Below are positions 22,555 to 46,831 of a DNA stretch of 64,000 bases, piece after piece. Under the pieces are notes generated by a model. That model did not search any database, had not been told where the DNA came from, and saw only the letters and a list, made by a program, of their open reading frames with translations. The stretch comes from a virus, in IMG/VR virus record IMGVR_UViG_3300035670_000083, positions 36,285 to 100,284 of that record. One strand, 5' to 3'. The number at the start of each line of letters is the position of its first letter. Positions within the stretch are counted from its first letter, which is position 1. Both the position numbers and the translations under genes were made by a program.

Positions 22555-25500
22555 ATGGCAATTCAAATCGGTAAATACAAAAGACCAGGCATCTTTATTG
22601 AAGAGTTTGATCAATCAGTGATTTCAAGCCCTACAGTTGAAGGAATAACAAATACTGTAATTGGTGTTTCGAGAAAAGGACCAGTTAATACTCCAATTCG
22701 TTTAACTAATGTTGCGGATTTAGAAAGAGTATTTGGACAACTTGATAGACAATTGGAAAGAAAGGGTTCTTTCTTCCATAGAACAATATCTAAAATGTTG
22801 GAAGCATCTCCAGTTTTCGCAATCAATTTACTTCTAACTGATGATACTTTGGATACTATTGAGTATCAATCATTATCTTGTGCTACTACAGAACAAAACG
22901 ATATTGAAAGAGAAGGACCTTATAGAAGATTTTTCGATACTACAGGTTTCTGGAGAAGAGATACTGAATCTTTTATAAATCTAACAAAAAATAACGTTGG
23001 TTATGAAAATAGACTATTGAATTTTACAAACTTATCTGATAAGTATGTTACTATTTTTGTTTTCAAATCTGAAAGAACTGGATTCGATATCTCTTTATTG
23101 GATTGGTATGGTGCTCAAGAAAAAGTACCTCCATATGTAAATCCAAAGGATTTAGCATCTGATTATTTAGTTGATGTTGTTGTTATTGCCGGTGATTATT
23201 CTGATTATAGAAATCTTTCTGTAGATCCAAGATTTTCACAATATTTCTCACCAAGTGGTCTTAGAAAAGATCAAGTTAGAAATTTCTCTAATGATAGAAA
23301 TGTTACAACATTGGCTTACGCTGAAGGACTCTCATTGATTCCTTATTTCAGAGATTTGAATGGTAATAATATTTTTATTGAAACTGTTATTAATAGAGGA
23401 ACTGATCAACACGGTGTATTCTGTGCTTTCAACGTTGATTTATTTGAGACTGATTATCCAAATGGATTAGTTGATTTAATTGGTAATAACTTTGTTGGAG
23501 ATGATTTGACAGCAAATCCACCAACATCAGGATTTACTAACTACGGAGAACTTGATTCAAATGATGGTACTTCAGATGGTGAGGTTAAAATCAACTTCCT
23601 TTCTTATAATGAGACTATTACTGAAAGTAATCCTTTCCAAACAACAGTATTGGATAGACCAGGTAATGTTATGGCTTTGTTTAGTGGTACTTCATCAAAT
23701 CCAAGTTCTATAAGTACACATACATTGAATCCAAACAGTGGTTCATTAGGTGGATATTTACAAGGTTATCCAAAAGATGTTGCTGGTAAATATGAAAGAA
23801 CTTATTGGTTTAATGAAGATTATGTTAATGATGTTTATGTTTCTTCTACGGCATCTACTGGACAAACTATATCAGTAACTTATGATGTTGCTACTGATAA
23901 TGGATACGTTGTTATAGGTGGTGAATATGTTTCTATAACTGACACATCTTCACAAGGAGGTTTGAATGGTCAGATTGATTTAGTTTCAACTTACTATTCA
24001 TCTTCATTGACAGTTACTCAATCTTATGTAGCTGCTTTTGTTGTTGATTCTAATGGACAGATTAAGTCTGTTCAGACAACTACACCAGGTGTAAATCCAC
24101 TTGTAAACGCTACTGATGTTGTTTTAGGATATGCTACATTCAGTTGTTTTGCTGGAACTTTCTCTGGTGTTAACTTCGTTCCAGTTTCTATTGATTTTGA
24201 TACAACTTTGAGTAGTGGTGGTGATTCTGCTTATTTACCTTTGGTATATGGAGTAGGTGGTGACTACTATTACACTGTTAATGGTTCACAATCATTGACT
24301 GTAACCTTTGATGATACAAATCAATCAATATCACCAAGAGATTATGAAAGATATAGAAGGTTAAAGACATTCAATCATATGGTAGATTATTTATCTTCTG
24401 ATACAGGAGTTTTACTTTTAGATCCAAATGGTTTATTGGGAGGTGAACAAGAAAAATTAGATTTATCTTTTGTTGAGATAGATAACATAATTAATACTAA
24501 TACACAAAATAGATCATTTGATTTATTGGTTGATGTTCCAGTGACAAATCCATCTACAAATACAGTTGTTGAGGATAATTACGTTGATAATTATTTTGCA
24601 ACAAACTCTGATGTAATCACATTAGCGACTGCTTCTATACCACTTGTTATATATAAGGTAGATGATGAATTCATTCTTGGTAAAGAAAGTGCTATCACTA
24701 AATCTACTCCTGCTGGATTAACTCAAGGAGTAGTTGCAAGGTACTCTACAATGTACCAAAGATACGAACAAGGTTTAATAAACAGCACTGATGTTATTTA
24801 TCAAAAGGTTAATTACTCACCAGTTCAAGTACAATTCATTGCTGGTGAATCTGTAACTGCTTCTCTATCAGGATATGATTATATCGTATTCGGTGTAAAT
24901 CAAAACGAAGAAGATTACTTAGGAAATCCTAGAACTGATATAATAAATCAGAATGATGCTTTCTTTACTGATGTAAATGATTTGTCTGGATATAAATTCT
25001 TATTATCAACTCCTGATAATAGTGGTGTATTCACTTACAAATCAGATGAAGGTTTAAATACAACAATTAATACACTGTTGACTTTACCAGCACCATACAA
25101 CGGATTTGGAAATAACTATACATCAGAACAAAGAGCGGATTTATTAGACACTTTATCTGGACAAGCTTTTGGATTCAGTGCTTCAGCTACTTACTCTTAT
25201 TACGCCTTTGAGGTGAATGAGAATATCACAGAAGAATTTGTAAATGCTGTTAATAACATATTCTCTTATAATTCAAACTTAGCCGATGCTCCAATTTACT
25301 TGGATATGCACTTAGATAATGAATTAAATATGGTTGTTACTTTTGAAGATAATCTTTTACAATCTTCAGTGCCATTTGATAGTGTAGTGACATCTACTAC
25401 TCCAGAACCACTATGGGCAAACTCAACAATAGTAGTTAAATCTTTGGATTCTAATTACAGACAATCTGTTGAAGTTGAATACCCTGCAAACTGGACTCCA

Positions 25501-26808
25501 GAGCCTAATAAGATTCTTGTAAGAGCTAGTAGATATACAGAATTGAGTGTAGGTGATTATTTAGAAGCATTCTATGATGAGTCATCACTTCAACCAAATG
25601 AAATGCCAAGAAAGCTTACAAGAGTTCTTAGAAAAAGACTTTGGAGTGGAGATTCTACTCTAGCTGAAATAACTTGTGATGCAGAAATCAAAATATCTGA
25701 CTTCGGATCAGGTGATAAGCAAACATTTATGTACACTCAACTTGATGACTATGTTTCTACTTATAAAGCTATTAGTTTGAAAGGATTTAGAATAAGACAA
25801 GATTCTTTACCAGATGGTACAGAAACTAAACAATCACAGATTCTTGATTTAGTTGCTAAGGGAACTCCACTTTTCAAAGCAGCTACAAACAAAGAAGCTT
25901 TTGATTTCAGATACTTGATAGATTCATTCGGATTAGGATTGACTGAAAGAAGTAAGCAACAATTAGTTGATATTTGTGGAGAAAGATTGGATTGTTTCGG
26001 TATATTGAATATGCCATCAATGAGATCATTCAAGAATTCTTCATCTCCATCATTTGTTAATAATGAAGGAGTTCTACAAACATCATTTATAGCATCAGGT
26101 GGTGATCCTAATTCATCTCCAGCTTTCCTTTACTCTTTAGGTGATGGAAGAGGTGTTTCCTCAGTTGGTTATTTCACACCATACTTGACTGTAAATGACA
26201 ATGGAAGACCTATTGATGTTCCACCATCAGCTTATGTTGGATTGACTTATATGAGAAAACATAACTCAACAGTTACTAATATTGTTCCTTGGACAATTGC
26301 GGCTGGTGTTACAAATGGTAGAATTACTAATATCGCAGGACTTGAACAGGATTTCAATCCTGAAGATATTGAGAACTTTAATCAGGCTCAAATGAATCCA
26401 ATTGTATTCAAGAGAAATAGAGGATTCACAATTGAAACTGAGAATACAGCTCAAACTCTATATTCATCAGCACTTTCTTTCATTCACGTTAGAGAAGTTC
26501 TTATTGAACTTGAAAGAGAGTTGTCTAGAATGTTACTTGATTTCCAATGGAGATTCAATACTCCTGAGGTTAGAGCAGAAATTAAGTTGAGAGCTGATGT
26601 TATCTGTGAGAGATATGTATCAAGAAATGGACTTTATAACTACTTTAACAAGTGTGATGAAGAAAATAACACTAACGAGATAATAGATAATCAAATAGGT
26701 GTACTTGATACTTATGTGGAGCCAATAAAGGGTATGGGTATTATAGTTAACAATATCACTATTCTTAGAACTGGAGCTATTCAAGCAGGTGGATTTATCC
26801 AACAGTAA
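22555..26808 (+). CDS. contractile tail sheath protein (gp18-like) with large insertion
   Basis: RPGIFIEEFD, KGPVNTP, C-terminal VPPS..AGVTNG..NPIV..IHVRE..CDEENN..VEPIKG. Confidence 0.92.
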   Translation: MAIQIGKYKRPGIFIEEFDQSVISSPTVEGITNTVIGVSRKGPVNTPIRLTNVADLERVFGQLDRQLERKGSFFHRTISKMLEASPVFAINLLLTDDTLDTIEYQSLSCATTEQNDIEREGPYRRFFDTTGFWRRDTESFINLTKNNVGYENRLLNFTNLSDKYVTIFVFKSERTGFDISLLDWYGAQEKVPPYVNPKDLASDYLVDVVVIAGDYSDYRNLSVDPRFSQYFSPSGLRKDQVRNFSNDRNVTTLAYAEGLSLIPYFRDLNGNNIFIETVINRGTDQHGVFCAFNVDLFETDYPNGLVDLIGNNFVGDDLTANPPTSGFTNYGELDSNDGTSDGEVKINFLSYNETITESNPFQTTVLDRPGNVMALFSGTSSNPSSISTHTLNPNSGSLGGYLQGYPKDVAGKYERTYWFNEDYVNDVYVSSTASTGQTISVTYDVATDNGYVVIGGEYVSITDTSSQGGLNGQIDLVSTYYSSSLTVTQSYVAAFVVDSNGQIKSVQTTTPGVNPLVNATDVVLGYATFSCFAGTFSGVNFVPVSIDFDTTLSSGGDSAYLPLVYGVGGDYYYTVNGSQSLTVTFDDTNQSISPRDYERYRRLKTFNHMVDYLSSDTGVLLLDPNGLLGGEQEKLDLSFVEIDNIINTNTQNRSFDLLVDVPVTNPSTNTVVEDNYVDNYFATNSDVITLATASIPLVIYKVDDEFILGKESAITKSTPAGLTQGVVARYSTMYQRYEQGLINSTDVIYQKVNYSPVQVQFIAGESVTASLSGYDYIVFGVNQNEEDYLGNPRTDIINQNDAFFTDVNDLSGYKFLLSTPDNSGVFTYKSDEGLNTTINTLLTLPAPYNGFGNNYTSEQRADLLDTLSGQAFGFSASATYSYYAFEVNENITEEFVNAVNNIFSYNSNLADAPIYLDMHLDNELNMVVTFEDNLLQSSVPFDSVVTSTTPEPLWANSTIVVKSLDSNYRQSVEVEYPANWTPEPNKILVRASRYTELSVGDYLEAFYDESSLQPNEMPRKLTRVLRKRLWSGDSTLAEITCDAEIKISDFGSGDKQTFMYTQLDDYVSTYKAISLKGFRIRQDSLPDGTETKQSQILDLVAKGTPLFKAATNKEAFDFRYLIDSFGLGLTERSKQQLVDICGERLDCFGILNMPSMRSFKNSSSPSFVNNEGVLQTSFIASGGDPNSSPAFLYSLGDGRGVSSVGYFTPYLTVNDNGRPIDVPPSAYVGLTYMRKHNSTVTNIVPWTIAAGVTNGRITNIAGLEQDFNPEDIENFNQAQMNPIVFKRNRGFTIETENTAQTLYSSALSFIHVREVLIELERELSRMLLDFQWRFNTPEVRAEIKLRADVICERYVSRNGLYNYFNKCDEENNTNEIIDNQIGVLDTYVEPIKGMGIIVNNITILRTGAIQAGGFIQQ

Positions 26809-26827: not shown

Positions 26828-26864
26828 AAATCCCTTCAAATTTGATTTGAAGGGATTTTTTTTT
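26828..26864 (+). terminator. intrinsic terminator after sheath
   Basis: AAATCCCTTCAAAT-TTG-ATTTGAAGGGATTT plus T run. Confidence 0.85.
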
Positions 26865-27366: not shown

Positions 27367-29583
27367 TTAAAAACTTTCCATAAACACTGAATCAAACTTT
27401 TTAAATTCATAATGTTGATAAGCATCTTCCGCTAAGAATGGTGTCATTGGTGCTAATACTTTCATCATTTTTTCTGCACAATCTTTTAAAACATATTGAC
27501 AATCCATTCTTTCATTTGAATCAAGTTCATATTCATAAAGGAATGATTTCGTAACATCATCTAAGTAAAAAGATGATACTTCTGATACCCATTTCATAAC
27601 TTCTCTAAGAACAAATTTGAAATCATAATCATCATAATATTTCATACAATTTTCATACATTTCTTGATTCATATCTAAACACTTTCTATCCCTCTCAGAT
27701 AGTCTAGGTTCATATCCTTCTTCAAATCCGTACATATTACCTAAAAAGTATTTCATAGTATTCCTCAATTTAAAATAAGAAGAACTACAAGTATTTAGAA
27801 CAGCATCTCCTAATGTAACATCATTTCCATATGATGTTTGTGCTACCCATAATCTTAAAACATCTGTATTTGTTTTTTCTTGAACATCTTTTGGATCAAC
27901 AACATTACCTAATGATTTTGACATTTTTCTTCCCTGTTGATCCATTACAAATCCGTGTGTTAATACTTTCTTATATGGAGCTCTTCCTTTCATCGCTACT
28001 GATGTCAAAAGTGAAGATTGATACCAACCACGAAATTGATCAGATCCCTCTAAATACATATCTGAAACTTCTCCGTTCATTACGGATAACCAAGATGATC
28101 CACTATCAAACCATACATCAAGTGTATAATTACATTTTTCCAAACCTTTTCCTCTCCACTTTACTGGTAAAAGTTCATCATCAGTCAATTCAAACCAAAC
28201 ATCACATCCGGATTCTTCAAATAGTCCATATAAATGTTGATAAACCTCTTTATCTAATACCGGTTTTCCATCTTTAAGAAAAACAGCGAAAGGAAATCCC
28301 CATTGTCTTTGTCTTGATAAGCACCATTTATCTCGTCCTTTCAGCATATTTGTCAATCTGTTTTTCCATCTTTCTTCTGACATATCAACTTCTTCAAGTG
28401 ATTCGAGTGCCGATTCATTCAATTCTTTAAGGTTGAGAAAGAATTGTTCTGTCAATCTATAATATACTGGTTTCTTTGTTCTCCAGTCGTGTGGGTAAGA
28501 GTGTTTGTATTCTTCAGATCTTACCAACATTCCAAGTTGATTCATTTCTTCTACTACATCGTTTGAGTAATCTAAACAGAATTTTCCATTTACTTTTCCG
28601 GAATTATCTGTTAGATCTTCTCCTTCAAGATTGTTTCTTTTACAAACTTCAAAGTCTTCATCACCGTGTGCTGGACAAAGGTGAACTAATCCAGTTCCGC
28701 TATCTGATTTCACAAAATCATCTAATAATACAACTCCTTTTTCTCCTGTGAGTTTATTCACATAATTTAATCCTTCAAGTTCATTTCCTTTGAATTCTCT
28801 TGATGTTTCACCTTCAACAACATCTGAGAATTCACCAACTACATATGTTTGATTTTCTTTTACAACCTCTTTATATGTTAGATTAGGATTTACACATACA
28901 GCTTTATTTCCAAGTAAAGTCCAAGGTTGTGTTGTCCAAGCAACTAACTTTCTTCCATCTTCTAAATCAAATGTAAAGTAAGCAGATACATCAGTTCTAT
29001 CTTGATATTCTAATTCTGATTCAGCAAGAACGGTTCTTGTTGATGGTGAATAATGAACTGGTCTGTTATCAAGATAAACCAATCCTTTATTCATAAGAAA
29101 ATAAAGCAATTCTAATTGTTTTACTTCAAATTCTTTTTTATTGGTTTGATATTTATTTTCCCAGTCGGCAAAAACTCCTAAAGATTTGAATGTTTCCATT
29201 TGTTTTTCAACAAAACCATTTGCTAACTTGTGGCATTCTTTTCTCAAATCTGAATGAGATAGCTTTTCTTTGAATTTTTTCTGAACTGCTAACTCAGTTG
29301 GTAAGCCGTGACAATCCCAACCTGGTCGGAAATCCACTTTATACCCATTCATTAATTTCCATTTGACTACCATATCTTTGAGGACTTTATTTAAAACGTG
29401 TCCAACGTGTAATTCACCATTTGCATAAGGTGGTCCATCATGTAAAAGAAATCTTTTTTGATTTAATTTATTTCTTTCATTTAAAGTATTTTCCCATAAT
29501 TTTAACAATTCTGGTTCTTTTGTTTTGTGTTCAGATCTTTGTGTAAAGTCTGTTTTCGGCATGTTCAATTTTTTTGTTTCCAT
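27367..29583 (-). CDS. ileS: isoleucyl-tRNA synthetase (IleRS1-type, short C-terminus)
   Basis: HDGPPYANG.LHVGH, GWDCHGLP, WCLSRQRQWG, EGSDQFRGW, KMSKSLGN; ATG 29583. Confidence 0.93.
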   Translation of the reverse strand: METKKLNMPKTDFTQRSEHKTKEPELLKLWENTLNERNKLNQKRFLLHDGPPYANGELHVGHVLNKVLKDMVVKWKLMNGYKVDFRPGWDCHGLPTELAVQKKFKEKLSHSDLRKECHKLANGFVEKQMETFKSLGVFADWENKYQTNKKEFEVKQLELLYFLMNKGLVYLDNRPVHYSPSTRTVLAESELEYQDRTDVSAYFTFDLEDGRKLVAWTTQPWTLLGNKAVCVNPNLTYKEVVKENQTYVVGEFSDVVEGETSREFKGNELEGLNYVNKLTGEKGVVLLDDFVKSDSGTGLVHLCPAHGDEDFEVCKRNNLEGEDLTDNSGKVNGKFCLDYSNDVVEEMNQLGMLVRSEEYKHSYPHDWRTKKPVYYRLTEQFFLNLKELNESALESLEEVDMSEERWKNRLTNMLKGRDKWCLSRQRQWGFPFAVFLKDGKPVLDKEVYQHLYGLFEESGCDVWFELTDDELLPVKWRGKGLEKCNYTLDVWFDSGSSWLSVMNGEVSDMYLEGSDQFRGWYQSSLLTSVAMKGRAPYKKVLTHGFVMDQQGRKMSKSLGNVVDPKDVQEKTNTDVLRLWVAQTSYGNDVTLGDAVLNTCSSSYFKLRNTMKYFLGNMYGFEEGYEPRLSERDRKCLDMNQEMYENCMKYYDDYDFKFVLREVMKWVSEVSSFYLDDVTKSFLYEYELDSNERMDCQYVLKDCAEKMMKVLAPMTPFLAEDAYQHYEFKKFDSVFMESF

Positions 29584-29612
29584 ATTTTTAATTTTTTTTT
29601 TTAACAATAAAA

Positions 29613-29727
29613 AACCCAAGGACTCTTTTGAATCCTTGGGTTACTATTAGATAATATAATCACATTATCTTTGGGGTATCCAAGGATTTAATCTGTGAAT
29701 TATAATTATGTTTCTTTTCATTTTCAT
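29613..29727 (-). promoter_or_regulatory. ribosome-mediated Ile attenuator (leader peptide, antiterminator, terminator)
   Basis: terminator hairpin 29613-29642 with U tract; competing AATCCTTGG at 29688-29680. Confidence 0.85.
29665..29727 (-). CDS. ileS leader peptide MKMKRNIIIIHRLNPWIPQR
   Basis: four consecutive Ile codons ATA ATT ATA ATT, just downstream of TATATTTG (29739-29732). Confidence 0.85.
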   Translation of the reverse strand: MKMKRNIIIIHRLNPWIPQR

Positions 29728-29758
29728 TTTACAAATATATTAATTATATATGAATTTT

Positions 29759-31420
29759 TTACACCTTTGTTAAATTTTTTTCAAATTTTATTTTACCACA
29801 ATTCCAAACTTTATTTATTTGTAGTGATGATTCAGAAACACCTGTTATAGATTTTCTAAATCTTGATTTGTGTATCAATTCATTTTGAAAAAGGTATTTA
29901 TAATCTGGTTCAGTCTCATGAATTTTTTCAAATTCTAATTTATAGTATAAATCTCCTTCAGACCAGTCTTTATCTGCATAACTTATTATTCTTGTGGGTT
30001 TAAATTCCTTAATAAAAAAAGAAAGTAATTTTGAAGCTCCTCCAACAACAGAGTAATTTACCTTATTGCAAAACCTAGACAAATTCCATTCGTCATTACT
30101 CATTTTTTTTCTACCCTCGAAATGATCAAATAACATTATTGATACCAATTCATTTCTGTAGTATAATCCTAATTTAATATTTGATTTTACAAACCCTTGT
30201 ATATGATTTTTGTCTAAAAAGTCTCTTATAGATTTGATATCTTTAATCTCTTTTACTTCACATTTTCTTGCTGGTATTTTCTTACTCTTACCAATTATAT
30301 TACTTATCTGTGACTTTATTATTTCTTTCCTATTTGTCCAATCATTTTCCCATATATTTATTATCCTTATTCCTTTTTCCTTGAAATAATTTAGTTTGTT
30401 TATATGGTAATTTTTATCTTTAAATTTATCAGAATGCCAATATATTCCATTGAACTCAAACCCAATTTTAAATTCTGGTAAGTAGATATCTATTTCAAAT
30501 TTGTCTCTGAATGAACTTATTAATTCTCCATCATAGATTGATTCTATGAAATCAAAAATCTCTTTTTCCTTTATGGAAATAAGTTCGTTTATAGGAAAAC
30601 AAATTGTGCATAATGGAATATTGTTTTCTAATCTTGACTTGAAGTTATTATAAAGTATTTCAAATTCATGTTCTTTTTCACAATCACATTTAAAAATAGA
30701 AATACTATTTCCTTTATATTCTTTATAGTTTTCATGATTTGAGATATCATAATTATTTCTGAATGTGTTGGAATTAAAAACATTCATCCTATTTATATTA
30801 GATTTCTCAATATTTAAGGTGCTTTTAACTCCCCATTTTTCTAAATTTGTTGATTCTTTTTTATCTTTTATAGTTTGACTTTGTGAGAAATGTTCTAATC
30901 CCCATTTACTTAAATTGGATTCTTTTTGTTTTTGATAAAATTCTTCAGTTTTTGAGAAGTTTTCAGCTCCCCATTTTTCTAAATTTGTTTGCTTAAATTT
31001 GGATTTTATCTTTTCATTTTGTAATACGTGCTCAACTCCCCATTTTTTTAGATTTGTTTGTTTTCTTTTTTTAAGAATTTTTTCTAATTTTGATTTATCT
31101 ATTTTCCTACCTTTGTTAGGATTTATTTTTTTAGGTTCTAATTCTATTGTTTCTTTGAACTTTTCATTTCCGCACTTACGAGAGCAAGCATATTTATTCA
31201 ATTTACTTTTATAAACTATCCTATTATAATCAACAAATTTCCTTTCATGTTCTTTATTACAATAATCACATTTTACTAAAACGTTTATATTAATTGATTT
31301 AGGTAAATCTATTATCTTAACCTCTATTTCATCTAAAGAAATATCATATCCTAAAGACTCATAGTGTTTTAGTTTTTTGTTAGCAAACGTTTTTACTAAT
31401 ACTGTTTTTGATAATATCAT
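29759..31420 (-). CDS. putative homing endonuclease (Hef-like) with TNLEKWG repeats
   Basis: CDYC, repeated TNL(K/E)KWG, EIDIYLPE..GFEFNGIYWHS, RFCNK..VGGASKLL. Confidence 0.75.
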   Translation of the reverse strand: MILSKTVLVKTFANKKLKHYESLGYDISLDEIEVKIIDLPKSININVLVKCDYCNKEHERKFVDYNRIVYKSKLNKYACSRKCGNEKFKETIELEPKKINPNKGRKIDKSKLEKILKKRKQTNLKKWGVEHVLQNEKIKSKFKQTNLEKWGAENFSKTEEFYQKQKESNLSKWGLEHFSQSQTIKDKKESTNLEKWGVKSTLNIEKSNINRMNVFNSNTFRNNYDISNHENYKEYKGNSISIFKCDCEKEHEFEILYNNFKSRLENNIPLCTICFPINELISIKEKEIFDFIESIYDGELISSFRDKFEIDIYLPEFKIGFEFNGIYWHSDKFKDKNYHINKLNYFKEKGIRIINIWENDWTNRKEIIKSQISNIIGKSKKIPARKCEVKEIKDIKSIRDFLDKNHIQGFVKSNIKLGLYYRNELVSIMLFDHFEGRKKMSNDEWNLSRFCNKVNYSVVGGASKLLSFFIKEFKPTRIISYADKDWSEGDLYYKLEFEKIHETEPDYKYLFQNELIHKSRFRKSITGVSESSLQINKVWNCGKIKFEKNLTKV

Positions 31421-40963: not shown

Positions 40964-43900
40964 ATGGATAATCTTGTTTTTTACGACAAAGAAGGCAATT
41001 ACTTGAATTTTAATTGGAATCAAACACTTGAAAGATACGAAGGAGATATTTTATTTCACGAAAATTCAAATGATACTTTTAAAACACAAGCTCTTTATAC
41101 TTTTGAGAAAATACCTTCTTTTGAATATGAAGACCAAAATTCATTGACATTAAGAAGATGGCAATTATTCAATGAGTTTGGGTTTCATTTTTATAACTCA
41201 GAATATGTTGATCAGAAAATCACTTTAATAGAACCAACAAATAATAGAAATGATTATTTCTCAAAGTGGATTTATGGTGATAATTTTCACGAGAAGTTTC
41301 CAAATGGAACTCTTATAAGATTCAATCAATCTATTTTTGAATTCACGAATTCTGATAGACTTTATACAGTTGTTTCTTCAAAAAGAGATGCTATATTGAT
41401 AATCTCAACTACTGATAATCAAACATTTAATTCAACTTACCCATTTTTTTCAACTTATCCTTATGGAAATGAAACAATATCTTCAGTTGATGTAATAGGT
41501 ATTTATGATTATGTTAATTCATCAACATTGACTTCAAATTTATCTAATTGGAATGAAAGAGATTTTTTCAATAGACTTTATAAAGAAAGAAAATTAAATA
41601 TTGTAAATTCATTTAATAATGATAATTATCAAATAACAGATAACCAAGTACCTAAAAGGTATATAGATGCTGAAGTAGTTTCTGTTAAAAATGAGAATAT
41701 ACAAGACCTAAGACACTTTGAATGGAGAGGAACAAACCTTCCATTAAATAATGAATTAAACATATCAGTTAAATTACTTACCGACTTACCTGTTATTTAT
41801 ACTGGGATTGTTGAGTTTTATGATTCATTAACACCATTAAATATAGGTGGTTTCAATTATCAGAATGTTATAAGGTTTGGATCAGGAGTTCCAGAAATAC
41901 TTTTACCTGGAGTTCAATTCAATGTTAGAAATACTGCTTTGAACCAACAAAATTATACAGTATCAAGTATTCCTCAATTTTTAGGAAATGCTAATTTGAT
42001 AACTTACAACGAGGGTGTTCAAGTTATTTGGGATAATCGAATTTATCAATGTATTCAAACACATGATTGGGTTTTGAATGCGGTTGATGTTGATTTAACA
42101 CTTCCTAGTCCAAGAACAAATGCTAATCCTGATAATACTGTTTTTTGGTCACCTAATCCAAGTTATGTCCCAGTAAATTCAAATACAACATCAGAAGGTC
42201 CTTTAAATACTGATGTTTATTTGACAAGTGATGTATTTATATTTACTCAATCTTTTACACAATCTTCAGAAATAACTTTAGCATTGGCAGTGGATAGATT
42301 TTCAGAAAGATTATCATCATTGAATATAGATCTTATGTATGAAAATGGAACAATAAGAGCTGATTTGATTTATCCAAGTCAATATGCTTTAGTCAATTTC
42401 ACTGGTTTTGATACTTCGGTTTCGCCGCCAGTATCGACTAATATTACTTCACAAACTAATGTATGGGAAAGAGCAATTGAAGTTGAAGAGAATTTAAATT
42501 TAGAGTATAATTATGATTTTTCAGAAAACTTTGAATATAATTTAGTTTTCACAGACATAGATGAGTTTGGTATTGTTATAACAATAAATGGTGAAAGGTA
42601 TGATGAGGACGTTGAGTTTGTTTTTTCTTCTGGACAGGTTGATATGGAAAGAACAATACATCAAACTCTTATAAATTGGTATCAATCTTGGGCTCCTCAG
42701 CTTGTTTCTTTAGGTATTTTTGTTAGCTTACAAACAATTGATATAATTTCGTTATATTTTAATTCAATTAAATTGGAAACTGAGTATCCGAATATACCAC
42801 TTGATTTTAAAGTTCAAGTTGGAATAACTGCTGATTTTTATATTCAGAATAAAAGACTTCAATTTTATGAGCCTTCTCAGTTGGCTTCAACAATTCCTGG
42901 TTATGCAGGAGCTTCATTCAGTTTAGGAAATTATATTAATATAGTTGTTAATAATCGTTCATATGGTATAACACATTCTTTACCTGATCCTATTTCATCA
43001 CTATCAACAACTCTGGATAATTGGGTTACTACTTATAGTGATATATTGGATGATTTTGGAATTTATGTTGAGAACAATGCTTCATCAATTGAATTCAGAA
43101 CTAAATCACAAACACAAAGATGTGATATAGAAGTAAGAGTCGGTTCTTCTGTTTTGCCAGGAGATAAAAGTTATGAGATAATAAACCTTCAACCAGGAAA
43201 TCACGGAACTCTTTTAACCTCTAATGAGATATTATTGGGAACATTTTCAAGTGCTACTCAATCATTAGAAGGAGCTGGTTTTGCAACTGGTATGATTACA
43301 GGAATAAATGGAACTTTTTACCCTCTACAGAATGTAGAGTATAATATTCTTTATTTAGAACCACAGATTATTAATTTAAGTTATGAAGGTCCTTTCTGGG
43401 GATTGACATCAGGAGTTTGTTTGAATTCACCATTTACTGTTTTAGCTTTTAATTCTGGATTCCAAAAATCTATTTGTGCAACTTCATCACAAGGAGGACA
43501 ATTTAATCAATTCCAATTTAACAGTTCTTTTAATATACAATCACAAAGTACAACATATTCTACTAATTTTATCAATGGTTTAGCTAATATGGTTGATTTG
43601 GTTTGGGTTCCACCGACAAACTCAATTTTTGTCTTAGGTTCTTCTTCAACAACAGGAGATGTATTTGTTTATGATTCAATAACATCAAATCAGATTGTTG
43701 ATTTGAATCTTCCTAATAACTCTCAGCCTTTGAAGATTATTTATAACTGGGTTGATAATTATGTTTGGGCTTTATCTGTTAATCATCTTTGGCAAATTGA
43801 TCCTTATTCTAATAGTGTGATTCAATCATTTCCAATTACCTCTAATGCCTTTAGCTTGGACTTCAATAGAAATAATGGAGAAGTTTGGGTAACAACTAAT

Positions 43901-46831
43901 AATTCAATTCAGATTTTCAACACATCGGGATTGATAACCTCTATTTCTTATGCTCCAGGATTTTATCATCTGGTTTTTAATGATTTTGAAGGTGATTTTT
44001 ATATAAGTAGTAGAAATGGTTTGGATGTTCTTAGATATAATGGAAATACAAGAACACTTTCAAATACATATCCAATAGTTGGATTGACAGCTGATCCTTT
44101 AATTTATGAAACTATAAATGAATCTGTTTATGTTTGGGGAACAAACCTTAATAGAATCGATAATAACTTAGTTATTACTTTATTTCCGACTAGTGGAACA
44201 TTCAATGATTTTGAATTCTCTAATATAACCAATGGAATTTACTTATCTACAGATTCTGAATTCAGTTTATGGGATATCAATAATGATACATATGAATTCA
44301 ATACTACTCCAGGATATTATGGATTCCAGGCTTTGAATTTATATGATGGTGATATTTATATTTCTAACCAAGATCCTGTTAATCCTGGAATTTACACATT
44401 AGGTTCACAAAATGGAAGTTTGAATAATGTTGTATTTTTGTCAGATCCAACGACAAAGATAATTTCCAATCCAGATAGGAATTCAGTTTGGGCTATACAA
44501 CCTAATACAAATGGTATAATAGAGGTTCAACCGTTGGTTACTAATATAATTACACCAATAAGTTCAACTTTTTCTCCTATCACTGCAAATTATTTTGGAA
44601 GTTTGGATCCTAATTTTATACAAAGAAATTATCTTTGGTTACATACAAAAGATTTTTTAAGAAGACCAAGACTTAATTTCAATGGTGATGTCAGAGGAAC
44701 TTTATATTGGAAGTGGTTTTCTGATAATGTTCCTGAGTTCTTTTTGTATGATTTCTCAGGTGACTTACTAAATGAAGGAGGTGTTTTATCATATGTAGGT
44801 CCTAAACCACTACCTAAGGTACATTTGAATAGAAATCCGAATAGAGATATTGATAAGGTTAATTTACCAGAGTATCAACAAACTATATTTCCGATTGTTT
44901 ATGAGGAATTGAGTTATATTGATGATAATGATGATCTTTCTATTGTTCCTGAGCCAATTGAGACTTATATTGGTTTTAATTCACAATTAGAAGGTGGATT
45001 AAGAAGTATTTTACAACTTTATATAAAAGAAGATATTGATTTCACTTTGAATACTAAGTTAGACACAACTGATGTTATGACTTTTCAAACAGTTATAAAT
45101 CAGAATGGTGAAAGAATAGGCGAAATATCATTAGATGTTTTATCAAATTCTAATTTTTTCACTGATGTTAATGGTGTGACAAGAGGATTGAAAGTCGGAC
45201 AACATCTTGCAATTTTTGTGAATGATGTTTCAAATACAAAAAATCAATACATTTCACCTAATAACGGTTATTTGGTTAGAATAAAACAGATACTTTATAA
45301 AAAGATCAGAGTTGAATTCTTCAAAGAAATTGATGCTTTTTCTTTAGAGTCCAGTATTGTTCAGGATTATCCTAAATCAGGACAAGTAACCTATTTATCT
45401 GTTAGATTCAGAGTTTGGGATAAAGAAATCGGAAGATTCAATGTTTATGGACAAACTGAGATTGAGGATATAAGATATAAAATTGAATTAGGAAATGTTG
45501 GTAAATTAGTATCATCTGATGATGTTTATATTTTCAAAGAATATGATATTGAAGAAGAAGGTATAGATTGGACTTTTTTAAATAAAAAGAGAAAAGAGAT
45601 GTTGATGATGAAATCATTAATTTATCCTTATATAGGTTCTTATAAAGCAATTATAAATGCTATCAACTATTTCGGATATAATGATTTAGAGTTAAATGAA
45701 TATTACAGGAATATAAATCCTTTATCAAAGAATTATTTTAAGTTATTTAAAGTTGAGATTCCTGATATTTTTTCTCCTTATGTGGATACTTGGAATGAAA
45801 GTGATTTCTTAAAAAATACTTTTCCGAATCCAAATTATGAAGAAACCAATCTATTCAACTTGACTTATAGAATTACGGATAGACAAGGTAATAATGTTCT
45901 CAATTATACTTTAAAAGAAGTTCAGATAAAACTACAAGGTTTGAAACATTGGCTAGAGAAAAACATTATTCCGATAACACATAAGATATTGGATATAACA
46001 GGAAGAGCTGATTTTGTTGGTACTACAACAATAAGTCATATTGTAAGAGATGTTAATATTATTAAAACACATGAGGATTTTACTCCTGTTTCTTTTAAAT
46101 TAAATGAATTATATTTGATGCCAGTAAATAATGGATCAACTGTTTATAATTGTGTTCTTGATTTTTATTTAAAGGATGATAATAATCAGTTTTATCCTGG
46201 AGTTTCAAAGACATTACCAGATTATTACACAATTGATATCAGAAGTTATCAAATTTACAGAGAATGGTATCCATTCAAAAATTATCAAACTGGTGATAAA
46301 GTTGTTTATTTTAATAAATTGTATGAGTCTCAGATTGATAATAACAAAACAAATAATCCAAGAAAATATGAATCAGTAAATTCTTGGCAATCTGGAACAA
46401 TTTATTCTGTTGGTGATGTTGTTGAATACCAAAGAGATTATTATGTTTATTCTGGGTATGGATTCACTGGTTCGGGTTTAACTGGATCAGCTCCTACGGC
46501 TTCAGTTGTTAGTCCTTTATTGGATTCTGATTTTGGAACAGCTTCTTGGCTGAATATAACAGAATGGAAGCAAATTGATATGCGACCAATTCAGAAAATA
46601 ACAGAAAGAAGAAGGATTGATAATCTTTATCCGTTTAATTTTACTATAGATTCAAATATAGATCCTTATCTTGTTATAGAGGTTTCTTCAGAAAATGGTT
46701 ATGGTGGTTCTTATAGAGATAAGAATAATTATGAGATAAAAGGAATATTGGATATAAGAGAATTAGAATCTTTCAGTAATCTAACATCAAAACAATATAC
46801 TAACTTAGTAATTCCTATTGTTAATCCATAA
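40964..46831 (+). CDS. very large structural protein (baseplate wedge/tail associated)
   Basis: 1955 aa; beta-propeller-like region, CBM-like WQSGTIYSVGDVVEY, YIGSYKAIINAINYFGY. Confidence 0.65.
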   Translation: MDNLVFYDKEGNYLNFNWNQTLERYEGDILFHENSNDTFKTQALYTFEKIPSFEYEDQNSLTLRRWQLFNEFGFHFYNSEYVDQKITLIEPTNNRNDYFSKWIYGDNFHEKFPNGTLIRFNQSIFEFTNSDRLYTVVSSKRDAILIISTTDNQTFNSTYPFFSTYPYGNETISSVDVIGIYDYVNSSTLTSNLSNWNERDFFNRLYKERKLNIVNSFNNDNYQITDNQVPKRYIDAEVVSVKNENIQDLRHFEWRGTNLPLNNELNISVKLLTDLPVIYTGIVEFYDSLTPLNIGGFNYQNVIRFGSGVPEILLPGVQFNVRNTALNQQNYTVSSIPQFLGNANLITYNEGVQVIWDNRIYQCIQTHDWVLNAVDVDLTLPSPRTNANPDNTVFWSPNPSYVPVNSNTTSEGPLNTDVYLTSDVFIFTQSFTQSSEITLALAVDRFSERLSSLNIDLMYENGTIRADLIYPSQYALVNFTGFDTSVSPPVSTNITSQTNVWERAIEVEENLNLEYNYDFSENFEYNLVFTDIDEFGIVITINGERYDEDVEFVFSSGQVDMERTIHQTLINWYQSWAPQLVSLGIFVSLQTIDIISLYFNSIKLETEYPNIPLDFKVQVGITADFYIQNKRLQFYEPSQLASTIPGYAGASFSLGNYINIVVNNRSYGITHSLPDPISSLSTTLDNWVTTYSDILDDFGIYVENNASSIEFRTKSQTQRCDIEVRVGSSVLPGDKSYEIINLQPGNHGTLLTSNEILLGTFSSATQSLEGAGFATGMITGINGTFYPLQNVEYNILYLEPQIINLSYEGPFWGLTSGVCLNSPFTVLAFNSGFQKSICATSSQGGQFNQFQFNSSFNIQSQSTTYSTNFINGLANMVDLVWVPPTNSIFVLGSSSTTGDVFVYDSITSNQIVDLNLPNNSQPLKIIYNWVDNYVWALSVNHLWQIDPYSNSVIQSFPITSNAFSLDFNRNNGEVWVTTNNSIQIFNTSGLITSISYAPGFYHLVFNDFEGDFYISSRNGLDVLRYNGNTRTLSNTYPIVGLTADPLIYETINESVYVWGTNLNRIDNNLVITLFPTSGTFNDFEFSNITNGIYLSTDSEFSLWDINNDTYEFNTTPGYYGFQALNLYDGDIYISNQDPVNPGIYTLGSQNGSLNNVVFLSDPTTKIISNPDRNSVWAIQPNTNGIIEVQPLVTNIITPISSTFSPITANYFGSLDPNFIQRNYLWLHTKDFLRRPRLNFNGDVRGTLYWKWFSDNVPEFFLYDFSGDLLNEGGVLSYVGPKPLPKVHLNRNPNRDIDKVNLPEYQQTIFPIVYEELSYIDDNDDLSIVPEPIETYIGFNSQLEGGLRSILQLYIKEDIDFTLNTKLDTTDVMTFQTVINQNGERIGEISLDVLSNSNFFTDVNGVTRGLKVGQHLAIFVNDVSNTKNQYISPNNGYLVRIKQILYKKIRVEFFKEIDAFSLESSIVQDYPKSGQVTYLSVRFRVWDKEIGRFNVYGQTEIEDIRYKIELGNVGKLVSSDDVYIFKEYDIEEEGIDWTFLNKKRKEMLMMKSLIYPYIGSYKAIINAINYFGYNDLELNEYYRNINPLSKNYFKLFKVEIPDIFSPYVDTWNESDFLKNTFPNPNYEETNLFNLTYRITDRQGNNVLNYTLKEVQIKLQGLKHWLEKNIIPITHKILDITGRADFVGTTTISHIVRDVNIIKTHEDFTPVSFKLNELYLMPVNNGSTVYNCVLDFYLKDDNNQFYPGVSKTLPDYYTIDIRSYQIYREWYPFKNYQTGDKVVYFNKLYESQIDNNKTNNPRKYESVNSWQSGTIYSVGDVVEYQRDYYVYSGYGFTGSGLTGSAPTASVVSPLLDSDFGTASWLNITEWKQIDMRPIQKITERRRIDNLYPFNFTIDSNIDPYLVIEVSSENGYGGSYRDKNNYEIKGILDIRELESFSNLTSKQYTNLVIPIVNP

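What the first reader, a model, noticed from the sequence alone, without database searches (positions are those of the whole stretch)
29583..29740. Phage IleRS controlled by a classic Ile leader-peptide attenuator
Seen on the minus strand: a host-type promoter TATATTTG (29739-29732), then leader MKMKRNIIIIHRLNPWIPQR* with ATA-ATT-ATA-ATT. AATCCTTGG in the leader can pair with CCAAGGATT, the 5' arm of the terminator AACCCAAGGATTC-AAAA-GAGTCCTTGGGTT-TTTT. Stalling at Ile codons would leave the antiterminator free (established mechanism). Inference: the phage senses Ile-tRNA charging, notably at AUA codons, and induces its own synthetase, which could counter starvation, tRNA-cleaving defences or IleRS inhibition. 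I am not aware of this being commonly described in phages.
Basis: partly seen in the sequence, partly recalled or inferred. Interest (0 to 1): 0.85.

Follow-up and report, generated by a model that had tools for sequence, protein, structure and literature searches.

The report
Isoleucine-sensing attenuator before phage IleRS
A huge bacteriophage puts a tiny test gene with four isoleucine codons and a switchable transcription stop in front of its own isoleucyl-tRNA synthetase gene, so it probably makes the enzyme only when ribosomes run short of charged isoleucine tRNA; I found no paper describing this textbook bacterial control in a virus.

Summary
On the minus strand lie a 20-codon ORF (29727-29665) with four consecutive Ile codons, a 13-bp terminator hairpin with a T-run (29642-29609), and the IleRS start 31 nt later (29583).

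All nine loci of this about 735-aa phage IleRS clade for which I had upstream DNA (IleRS 61-97% identical) keep the same layout. It consists of an 18-21-codon ORF with exactly four Ile codons in varying ATA/ATT mixes, TCCTTGG 11-12 nt later, and a terminator whose 5' arm holds CCAAGGA.

Folds with a ribosome stalled on the Ile codons form the antiterminator in 9 of 9.

In sister phages, Val, Leu, His, Asp and Asn leaders precede ValRS-, LeuRS-, HisRS-like, AspRS and AsnRS genes. Mixed leaders precede tRNA arrays.

Weak points:
- The antiterminator core never varies, so it gives no covariation evidence.
- The special role proposed for AUA codons is not supported.
- There are no transcript data.

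The mechanism is the classical trp/pheST type. The setting, a virus regulating its own synthetase, appears unpublished. Earlier unchecked notes of this scan reported similar attenuators in other phage genomes.

The parts
29732..29739 (-). Bacteroidota-type -7 promoter box (TAnnTTTG). If it sits at -12 to -5 as in Flavobacterium, transcription starts at 29727, the A of the leader ATG.
   Evidence: Sequence. Box position taken from PMC9723704. The same box lies 4-5 nt before the leader ATG in L001, L171, L169, L185 and L182, and 16-43 nt before it in L005, L008, L024, L162 and L176. It is not enriched genome-wide.
29665..29727 (-). Leader ORF of 20 codons plus a TAA stop.
   Evidence: An ORF of 18-21 codons is kept in all nine clade loci, while its N-terminal residues vary.
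29698..29709 (-). Four consecutive Ile codons (ATA ATT ATA ATT), the proposed stalling site.
   Evidence: There are exactly four Ile codons in 9 of 9 relatives, in differing ATA/ATT mixes. None of 35 non-clade phage ileS upstream regions has this except L058, which looks like a second true case.
29680..29688 (-). Antiterminator 5' strand (AATCCTTGG, core TCCTTGG), which can pair with 29639-29631.
   Evidence: The core is invariant in 9 of 9. In L007 it lies in another reading frame, so the constraint is on the RNA and not on the peptide.
29650..29664 (-). Segment after the stop codon that pairs back onto the Ile-codon tract. This leader hairpin forms when no ribosome is stalled.
   Evidence: It appears in the minimum-energy fold and in the ribosome-free folds of 8 of 9 relatives.
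29609..29642 (-). Intrinsic terminator: a 13-bp G+C-rich hairpin (29642-29613) with a run of six T (29614-29609).
   Evidence: -19.7 kcal/mol. A terminator of -13.8 to -19.7 kcal/mol with 6-9 T is present in all nine loci.
27367..29583 (-). Isoleucyl-tRNA synthetase gene (738 aa), the only gene behind the switch.
   Evidence: Pfam tRNA-synt_1, E 2e-112. NCBIfam ileS equivalog above its cut-off. HIGH, KMSKS and editing-domain motifs are invariant in the clade alignment. A convergent gene and a two-way terminator at 26828-26858 close the unit.
29759..31420 (-). Homing-endonuclease gene inserted directly upstream (context, not part of the switch).
   Evidence: phrog_3339, E 8e-101. It is absent from L001, the relative with 97% identical IleRS. 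There the upstream gene has its own terminator, followed by TTTG and a TAnnTTTG box.

Best explanation
This is a ribosome-mediated (leader-peptide) transcription attenuator that makes synthesis of the phage's own IleRS depend on how fast Ile codons are decoded. Transcription starts at or just before the leader ATG, and a ribosome translates the 20-codon leader close behind the polymerase. When charged tRNA-Ile is plentiful, the ribosome runs to the stop codon at 29667-29665. There it covers the 3' end of TCCTTGG and the small hairpin behind it, the terminator hairpin forms, and transcription ends at the T-run, 31 nt before the ileS start. When charged tRNA-Ile is scarce, the ribosome stalls on codons 7-10. 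This leaves AATCCTTGG free 11-12 nt downstream to pair with CCAAGGATT as soon as that is transcribed. The terminator cannot form, and the polymerase reads into ileS. With no ribosome at all, the Ile-codon tract pairs with the segment after the stop codon and the terminator forms. What is shown: the sequence elements, their conservation, their spacing, and the predicted alternative folds. What is inferred: translation of the leader, coupling to transcription, and the direction and size of the response.
For: Anatomy.

Conservation: nine loci of the clade (IleRS 61-97% identical; window, L001, L002 = LR745206.1, L004-L008, L024) all carry an 18-21-codon ORF with exactly four Ile codons in varying ATA/ATT mixes. 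TCCTTGG follows 11-12 nt later, then a stop codon, then a terminator holding CCAAGGA with 6-9 T. In L007 the TCCTTGG lies in a different reading frame, so it is an RNA signal.

Specificity: an exact pattern for the element hits 7 contigs in all of IMG/VR, every one upstream of a clade ileS. It hits 3 places in 596 Gb of GTDB genomes, all inside coding sequence and without a terminator.

Folding: with a ribosome footprint placed on Ile codons 1-4 and the transcript cut before the 3' arm, the antiterminator is the minimum-energy fold in 9 of 9 (-15 to -23 kcal/mol). With the ribosome at the stop codon the energy falls to between -2 and -12 kcal/mol.

Cognate logic elsewhere: in sister phages, leaders with Val x3-4 precede four ValRS-like genes. 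Leu x4 precedes a LeuRS-like gene, His-rich leaders precede two HisRS-like genes, Asp-Asp precedes two AspRS genes, and Asn x3-4 precedes two AsnRS genes. The same three-state folding behaviour holds in 10 of 11 of these, with unrelated primary sequences. A whole-genome scan of the 508-kb sister phage G001 finds these cassettes, plus mixed leaders before tRNA arrays.

Cassette independence: in L001 the upstream gene has its own terminator before the promoter-like box, so the second hairpin is not simply the end of the upstream gene.

Host plausibility: the relative LR745206.1 has the length (634,780 bp) of one of the largest genomes in PMC7162821, which that paper predicts replicate in Bacteroidetes. 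Leader-peptide attenuation is indicated in Flavobacterium (PMC9723704).
Against: The 7-bp antiterminator core never varies, so it gives no covariation support. The terminator has one compensatory pair.

In 5 of 9 loci, including the window, the truncated ribosome-free transcript also prefers the antiterminator, so basal read-through may be high.

A ribosome stalled on the fourth Ile codon would cover the first 1-2 nt of the 9-bp helix.

The predicted transcript is leaderless, a class that makes up only 5.5% of Flavobacterium mRNAs. In the window the endonuclease insertion has also removed the TTTG at -33 that is seen in L001.

The host and the polymerase that transcribes this gene are unknown.
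Confidence: 0.85

Rival explanations
1. The hairpin is an ordinary constitutive terminator or insulator for the upstream gene. The short ORF with four Ile codons is then a by-product of A+T-rich DNA.
For: A run of four Ile occurs 28 times in the six-frame translation of the window, about 0.037 per 170 nt. ATAATT repeated is low-complexity sequence. There is no room for a promoter between the T-run and the ileS ATG, so some read-through is needed under any model.
Against: The ORF, the four Ile codons, the spacing and the complementary heptamers are kept in 9 of 9 loci, down to 61% IleRS identity, while the flanks differ. L001 has a separate terminator for the upstream gene. A+T-rich control loci lack such ORFs. 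Other synthetases carry leaders in their own amino acid.
Confidence: 0.03
2. The same switch exists, but its physiological signal is damage to or shortage of tRNA-Ile (for example host anticodon nucleases, or competition with phage tRNAs) rather than isoleucine starvation. It would then be part of a phage system that watches the translation apparatus.
For: The sister phage G001 carries 61 tRNA genes, including tRNA-Ile with anticodons GAT and TAT. Its tRNA arrays sit behind leaders whose residues mirror the tRNAs that follow. A leader ribosome reports charged tRNA of any origin, so the sequence does not tell the causes apart.
Against: Nothing in the sequence favours tRNA damage over amino-acid shortage. 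The held 100-kb record of this phage has no tRNA gene. AUA, the codon of the minor tRNA, is not enriched in the leader.
Confidence: 0.3
3. The leader region acts through a direct RNA sensor (T-box-like tRNA binding or a metabolite riboswitch) or a protein, and the short ORF is irrelevant.
For: In Firmicutes and Actinobacteria, ileS is controlled by T-box leaders that also end in a terminator/antiterminator pair (my own knowledge, and PMC1262725, listed).
Against: An Rfam scan of 29300-30000 with permissive thresholds gives only weak sub-threshold matches, to sRNA, miRNA and snoRNA families (best E 0.062, 22.2 against 39 bits), and no T-box or riboswitch. Nor does a scan of 20 other phage ileS loci. 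The leader has about 115 nt between the ATG and the T-run, too short for a T-box. The only element shared across the different synthetase leaders is a run of cognate codons inside an ORF.
Confidence: 0.04
4. The short ORF encodes a functional small hydrophobic peptide, and the terminator only sets its expression.
For: The ORF is conserved in length, and part of its C-terminal half recurs (Pro-Trp in 8 of 9).
Against: The N-terminal residues vary freely. In L007 the C-terminal half is read in another frame while the nucleotides CCTTGG are kept. The Pro-Trp codons are the antiterminator strand itself.
Confidence: 0.03

Closest known systems
E. coli pheST leader (pheM) attenuator
   Same: A short leader ORF rich in the cognate codon lies upstream of an aminoacyl-tRNA synthetase operon, with alternative terminator and antiterminator hairpins. 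The response is more synthetase when the cognate charged tRNA is scarce. This comparison rests on my own knowledge and was not tested here.
   Different: It is chromosomal and proteobacterial, not viral. It senses Phe, not Ile. There is no sequence similarity (no Rfam leader family matches). The present leader is predicted to be leaderless, behind a Bacteroidota-type promoter.
Classical amino-acid operon leaders (trpL, hisL, leuL; ilvL and ivbL with Ile, Val and Leu codons)
   Same: The layout has four segments: regulatory codons in segment 1, a 1:2 hairpin, a 2:3 antiterminator and a 3:4 terminator. The stop codon is placed so that a finishing ribosome blocks 2:3.
   Different: Those leaders control biosynthetic enzymes and are often multivalent. 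This one controls a synthetase, uses one amino acid only, and sits in a phage genome.
T-box leaders of ileS in Firmicutes and Actinobacteria
   Same: The gene and the logic are the same: uncharged tRNA-Ile leads to read-through of a terminator before ileS.
   Different: In a T-box the sensor is the RNA itself, which binds the tRNA. Here the sensor is a translating ribosome, and no T-box signature is present.
His leader peptides before hisS paralogues and hisZ in Bacillus (Naville and Gautheret 2010, PMC2965389)
   Same: These are computationally found leader peptides with cognate codons before a synthetase-family gene. They parallel the His-rich leaders before the phage HisRS-like genes.
   Different: They are cellular, they sense His, and their sequences are unrelated.
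Leader-peptide attenuators before phage tRNA arrays and synthetases, reported in earlier notes of this scan
   Same: The cassette is the same (promoter, short cognate ORF, switchable terminator) and occurs in huge or large phages. I reproduced the pattern in sister phage G001.
   Different: Those notes concern other genomes and mostly tRNA arrays. They are unchecked AI notes, not publications.

Membership tests
Leader-peptide (ribosome-mediated) transcription attenuator | A short ORF with start and stop codons lies just upstream of the regulated gene. | tested here: met
   A 20-codon ATG ORF at 29727-29665; kept in 9 of 9 relatives.
Leader-peptide (ribosome-mediated) transcription attenuator | The leader holds tandem codons for the amino acid that the regulated gene handles. 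| tested here: met
   Four Ile codons before an ileS equivalog, in 9 of 9 relatives. Cognate runs also precede ValRS-, LeuRS- and HisRS-like, AspRS and AsnRS genes in sister phages.
Leader-peptide (ribosome-mediated) transcription attenuator | An intrinsic terminator lies between the leader ORF and the gene. | tested here: met
   A 13-bp hairpin plus T-run at 29642-29609; present in all nine loci.
Leader-peptide (ribosome-mediated) transcription attenuator | An antiterminator helix excludes the terminator and is favoured when a ribosome stalls on the regulatory codons. | tested here: met
   29688-29680 pairs with 29639-29631 over 9 bp (1 of 500 shuffles reaches this). It is the minimum-energy fold in 9 of 9 under a stalled-ribosome mask. 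This is prediction only.
Leader-peptide (ribosome-mediated) transcription attenuator | Base-pair covariation supports the alternative helices. | tested here: inconclusive
   The antiterminator core is invariant and has no compensatory change. The terminator has one compensatory pair. Support comes instead from unrelated sequences keeping the same design in other synthetase leaders.
Leader-peptide (ribosome-mediated) transcription attenuator | The leader is translated, and read-through depends on the regulatory codons and on charged tRNA. | not testable with these tools
   No RNA data could be obtained. A reporter assay, Term-seq or ribosome profiling is needed.
Any described Rfam leader or riboswitch family (including T-box) | A match to a curated covariance model. 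| tested here: not met
   A permissive cmscan of 29300-30000 gives only sub-threshold chance-level hits (best 22.2 bits against a gathering score of 39).
Isoleucine--tRNA ligase (TIGR00392 equivalog) | A whole-protein score above the curated cut-off, with the catalytic motifs present. | tested here: met
   704.9 bits against 621.4. HxGH, KMSKS and the editing-domain motifs are invariant in the clade alignment. The C-terminal zinc-finger domain PF06827 is absent from the clade.

The most novel reading that the evidence does not exclude
Huge phages of the Mahaphage type run a self-contained feedback network. Each of their synthetase genes and tRNA blocks sits behind its own leader peptide, written in the matching codons, so the virus would measure decoding speed codon by codon during infection. 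It would top up only the parts of the translation apparatus that are limiting. The IleRS switch in this window is one node of that network.
Probability: 0.6. Interest if true: 0.85.

Novelty: new variant of a known kind. Interest (0 to 1): 0.7.

Why it matters
Huge phages are known to carry tRNAs and up to 15 synthetases (PMC7162821), but how and when they use them is unknown. A cognate leader-peptide switch implies that these genes are not simply expressed on a timetable. They would be induced on demand, by the same ribosome-stalling signal that bacteria use.

This gives three things:
- It gives a direct, testable handle on what limits phage translation in the cell, whether amino-acid supply, tRNA charging or tRNA damage.
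- It is evidence that transcription and translation are coupled during infection of Bacteroidota-like hosts.
- It gives a compact family of natural amino-acid-specific switches with a shared design and different sequences.

It would also be, to my knowledge, the first leader-peptide attenuator described for an ileS gene and for a viral gene.

Tried and rejected
Tools that did not run or gave nothing useful:
- The metagenome scan with the clade alignment used patterns that were too general and returned only cellular IleRS at 34-40% identity. I reused these as controls.

Readings tested and dropped:
- Rfam gave no family.
- The covariation tests on the nine-sequence alignment were uninformative for the antiterminator.
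- My automatic picking of leaders and terminators failed for some non-Ile loci, and I replaced it. L170 has a hairpin but no T-run by my criteria.
- A genome-wide excess of TAnnTTTG, or of TAnnTTTG-N4-ATG, was looked for in the 100-kb record and not found.
- No other leader cassette exists in the 100-kb record of this phage.
- A giant eukaryotic virus origin was considered early and rejected. The window encodes a T4-type portal, major capsid protein, tail sheath and large terminase.
- L012 (a short TTG ORF with three Ile) was judged not to be a leader.

I reran it using coordinates and short patterns.
Full report
WHAT THE WINDOW IS. The window has 25-35% G+C. It encodes a T4-type portal, a gp23-like major capsid protein, a prohead protease, a tail-sheath-like protein and a large terminase. 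It is part of a 100,284-bp IMG/VR virus record that CheckV rates 18% complete, which implies a genome of roughly half a megabase. The closest deposited relative of its IleRS, at 64% identity, is in LR745206.1, an uncultured phage of 634,780 bp. Al-Shayeb et al. (PMC7162821) describe largest genomes of 634-735 kb, place them in their Mahaphage clade and predict that they replicate in Bacteroidetes. Taking LR745206.1 to be their 634-kb genome is my inference from its length. The window is therefore a bacteriophage, probably with a Bacteroidota host, and the host assignment is likewise inferred.

THE OBSERVATION.
- TATATTTG lies at 29739-29732.
- A 20-codon ATG ORF spans 29727-29665.
- Its codons 7-10 are ATA ATT ATA ATT (29709-29698).
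- AATCCTTGG lies at 29688-29680.
- A 13-bp hairpin lies at 29642-29613, and its 5' arm contains the exact complement CCAAGGATT (29639-29631).
- A run of six T lies at 29614-29609.
- The ATG of a 738-aa protein lies at 29583, 31 nt after the start of the T-run.

The protein scores 704.9 bits on the NCBIfam ileS equivalog, above the cut-off of 621.4. The 157-nt leader folds with z = -5.6 against shuffles.

The unit contains only ileS. A convergent gene and a two-way terminator follow at 26828-26858.

IS IT MORE THAN CHANCE? In this A+T-rich DNA, four Ile in a row is expected about 0.037 times per 170 nt on one strand. The window alone is therefore only suggestive, and the decisive evidence is comparative.

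The IleRS belongs to a clade of about 735-aa proteins with roughly 100 cluster representatives, on contigs of up to 711 kb. I could read upstream DNA for nine loci: the window, L001, L002, L004, L005, L006, L007, L008 (L009 is identical to it) and L024. Their IleRS identity to the window ranges from 61 to 97%.

All nine have the following:
- An ORF of 18-21 codons.
- Exactly four consecutive Ile codons in it, with different ATA/ATT mixes from locus to locus.
- The heptamer TCCTTGG 11-12 nt after the last Ile codon.
- A stop codon 12-21 nt further on.
- A terminator of -13.8 to -19.7 kcal/mol whose 5' arm holds CCAAGGA (CCAGGGA in L006, which keeps a G-U pair), followed by 6-9 T.

The residues before the Ile run differ freely. 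In L007 the heptamer is read in another frame, so it is constrained as RNA and not as peptide.

Three controls bear on chance:
- Of 35 phage ileS loci outside the clade, many equally A+T-rich, none has such an ORF except L058.
- An exact pattern for the element (Ile run, CCTTGG, CCAAGG with the observed spacings) hits seven contigs in the whole of IMG/VR, and all are clade ileS loci.
- The same pattern hits three places in 596 Gb of GTDB genomes, all inside long ORFs and without a terminator.

The flanks upstream of the cassette are unrelated among the loci. In L001 the upstream gene ends with its own terminator before a TTTG and a TAnnTTTG box. The cassette therefore travels with ileS and is not the tail of a neighbouring gene.

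HOW IT PROBABLY WORKS. I folded each leader with a 28-nt ribosome footprint masked and with the transcript cut just before the 3' arm of the terminator.
- With the ribosome on any of the four Ile codons, the minimum-energy fold in 9 of 9 pairs TCCTTGG (7-10 bp with its flanks) with the terminator 5' arm, at -15 to -23 kcal/mol.
- With the ribosome at the stop codon, that helix is clipped and the internal hairpin that supports it is melted, leaving -2 to -12 kcal/mol.
- With no ribosome and the full transcript, the Ile-codon tract pairs with the segment after the stop codon and the terminator forms. This holds in 8 of 9, and for the window.

This is the three-state logic of the trp leader. The conserved gap of 11-12 nt between the last Ile codon and the heptamer matches the downstream edge of a stalled ribosome. 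This last point is inference from general knowledge of ribosome footprints.

The predicted outcome is more IleRS when charged tRNA-Ile is scarce.

THE SAME DESIGN ON OTHER SYNTHETASES. I searched LR745206.1 and three IMG/VR relatives for other synthetase families and named the hits with NCBIfam. The leaders match the enzymes as follows:

| Gene behind the leader | Loci | Leader content |
|---|---|---|
| ValRS-like | L168, L169, L170, L162 | Val x3-4 |
| LeuRS-like | L171 | Leu x4 |
| HisRS-like | L180, L176 | His-rich |
| AspRS | L181, L184 | Asp-Asp |
| AsnRS | L182, L185 | Asn x3-4 |

Each leader is followed by a hairpin, which by my criteria is an intrinsic terminator in all but L170. Their primary sequences are unrelated to the Ile leader. 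Yet in 10 of 11, the stalled-ribosome fold pairs the terminator 5' arm with a segment at the end of the leader ORF, and the ribosome-at-stop fold does not.

Not every synthetase has a leader. One LeuRS-like gene, SerRS, LysRS, GlnRS, GluRS and one AsnRS lack one, and several of these sit just behind tRNA genes.

L058, a second phage IleRS lineage (36% identical, with a Shine-Dalgarno site), also has a four-Ile leader and a terminator.

I assembled the 508-kb sister phage G001 from fetched stretches and scanned it. The scan recovers the Ile, Leu, Asp, Val and His cassettes. It also finds leaders before tRNA arrays whose residues mirror the tRNAs that follow. Examples are a Gln-rich leader before four tRNA-Gln genes, with a GlnRS gene next, and a Ser/Arg/Thr leader before a Ser/Arg array. 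That the enriched amino acid matches the enzyme in six independent synthetase types is very unlikely by chance.

THE PROMOTER AND THE START OF THE LEADER. TAnnTTTG is the sigma-A -7 box of Bacteroidota and lies at -12 to -5 in Flavobacterium psychrophilum (PMC9723704). In the window this places +1 on 29727, the A of the leader ATG, so the leader ORF would be translated from a leaderless mRNA. The second ATG, at codon 3, is an alternative start.

The box is not enriched in the record as a whole: there are 185 sites, about the number expected from composition. It does recur within 45 nt upstream of about 11 of 20 leaders, five times with the same 4-nt gap. I regard the promoter call as plausible but not established. 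Four Ile loci show only an ATATATA-type motif at that place.

In the window, a homing-endonuclease gene (phrog_3339) has been inserted directly upstream. The TTTG at -33 seen in L001 is lost.

WHAT IS NOT SUPPORTED.
- AUA emphasis: ATA makes up 42% of Ile codons in the phage's long ORFs and half of the leader's. The L058 leader has none.
- Covariation: the antiterminator core is invariant, so the test says nothing either way. The terminator shows one compensatory pair.
- Tight switching: in five loci, including the window, the ribosome-free truncated transcript also prefers the antiterminator, so the switch may be leaky.
- Physiological trigger: whether it is starvation, tRNA damage or IleRS inhibition cannot be read from the sequence.

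COMPARISON WITH WHAT IS KNOWN. The mechanism is that of the classical leader-peptide attenuators. The nearest functional precedent is the pheST leader of E. coli, a synthetase operon behind a Phe-rich leader (my own knowledge). The nearest precedent for the gene is the T-box of ileS in Gram-positive bacteria, which uses a different sensor and is absent here. Leader peptides before hisS paralogues in Bacillus were predicted by Naville and Gautheret.

Four full-text searches found no paper that describes leader-peptide attenuation of a phage gene, of a phage synthetase, or of ileS. The huge-phage paper does not mention attenuation.

Earlier notes of this scan report the same kind of cassette before tRNA arrays and a few synthetases in other phage genomes. 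They are unchecked, but my scan of G001 agrees with them.

One acidobacterial ileS locus (L116) has a four-Ile short ORF and a terminator. This hints that cellular ileS leaders may exist.

VERDICT. It is a new variant of a known kind of switch: classical in mechanism, new in gene and in biological setting, and apparently one node of a wider phage system.

Noticed in passing
window 29759-31420 (-): A 553-aa homing-endonuclease gene (phrog_3339, Pfam DUF7487) sits directly before the leader. Its last codons run into sequence that is homologous to the promoter region of L001, whose IleRS is 97% identical and which lacks the insert.
   Followed up: partly
window 27367-29583 (-) and proteins P0001-P0099: The phage IleRS clade is uniformly short (about 735 aa against 900-1000 aa in bacteria) and lacks the C-terminal zinc-finger domain PF06827. 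It keeps the HIGH, KMSKS and editing motifs. It has about 100 cluster representatives, on contigs of up to 711 kb.
   Followed up: partly
L168, L169, L170, L162, L171, L172 (sister phages): These are ValRS-like and LeuRS-like proteins of only 420-510 aa. They match the catalytic core and the anticodon-binding part of the models but skip the editing domain, and they score below the equivalog cut-offs. Whether they charge tRNA is open.
   Followed up: no
L180, L176, L174: These 207-211-aa proteins match only the N-terminal half of HisRS (or HisZ). Two of the three sit behind His-rich leaders.
   Followed up: no
G001 (IMGVR_UViG_3300049793_000366) 319910, 393928, 407257, 412151, 419437 (+): Short ORFs followed by terminators stand before tRNA arrays, and their residues mirror the tRNAs that follow. 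Examples are a Gln-rich leader before four tRNA-Gln genes, and a leader rich in Glu, Tyr, Gly, Ile and Ala before an array of those tRNAs.
   Followed up: partly
G001 121630-121702 and 420871-420944: ARAGORN calls a tRNA with anticodon CTA, which reads TAG and hints at stop-codon recoding. It also calls a tRNA-Ile with anticodon TAT, which would read AUA directly.
   Followed up: no
L116 about 825-925 (Ga0197142_1000016; IleRS nearest to Pyrinomonadaceae, Acidobacteriota): A cellular ileS gene is preceded by a short ORF with four Ile codons, a hairpin that overlaps the ORF's stop codon, and a terminator. This may be a bacterial ileS leader-peptide attenuator. It was the only such case among 75 metagenome ileS upstream regions.
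   Followed up: partly
L058 1204-1330 (IMGVR_UViG_3300031088_000737): A second phage IleRS lineage (36% identical, with a Shine-Dalgarno site) has its own four-Ile leader (ATT ATT ATT ATC) and a terminator. This suggests independent origin or old ancestry of the device.
   Followed up: partly
L163 (LR745206.1 about 404795-405469): A LeuRS-like reading frame has two in-frame TAA codons and an extra short ORF between a Leu-rich leader with its terminator and the gene. It may be broken or rearranged.
   Followed up: no
window 40964-46831 (+) and 22555-26808 (+): There are two very large ORFs. The 1955-aa one has only a weak CBM_5_12 match. In the 1417-aa one, only the last 350 residues match tail-sheath families.
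   Followed up: no
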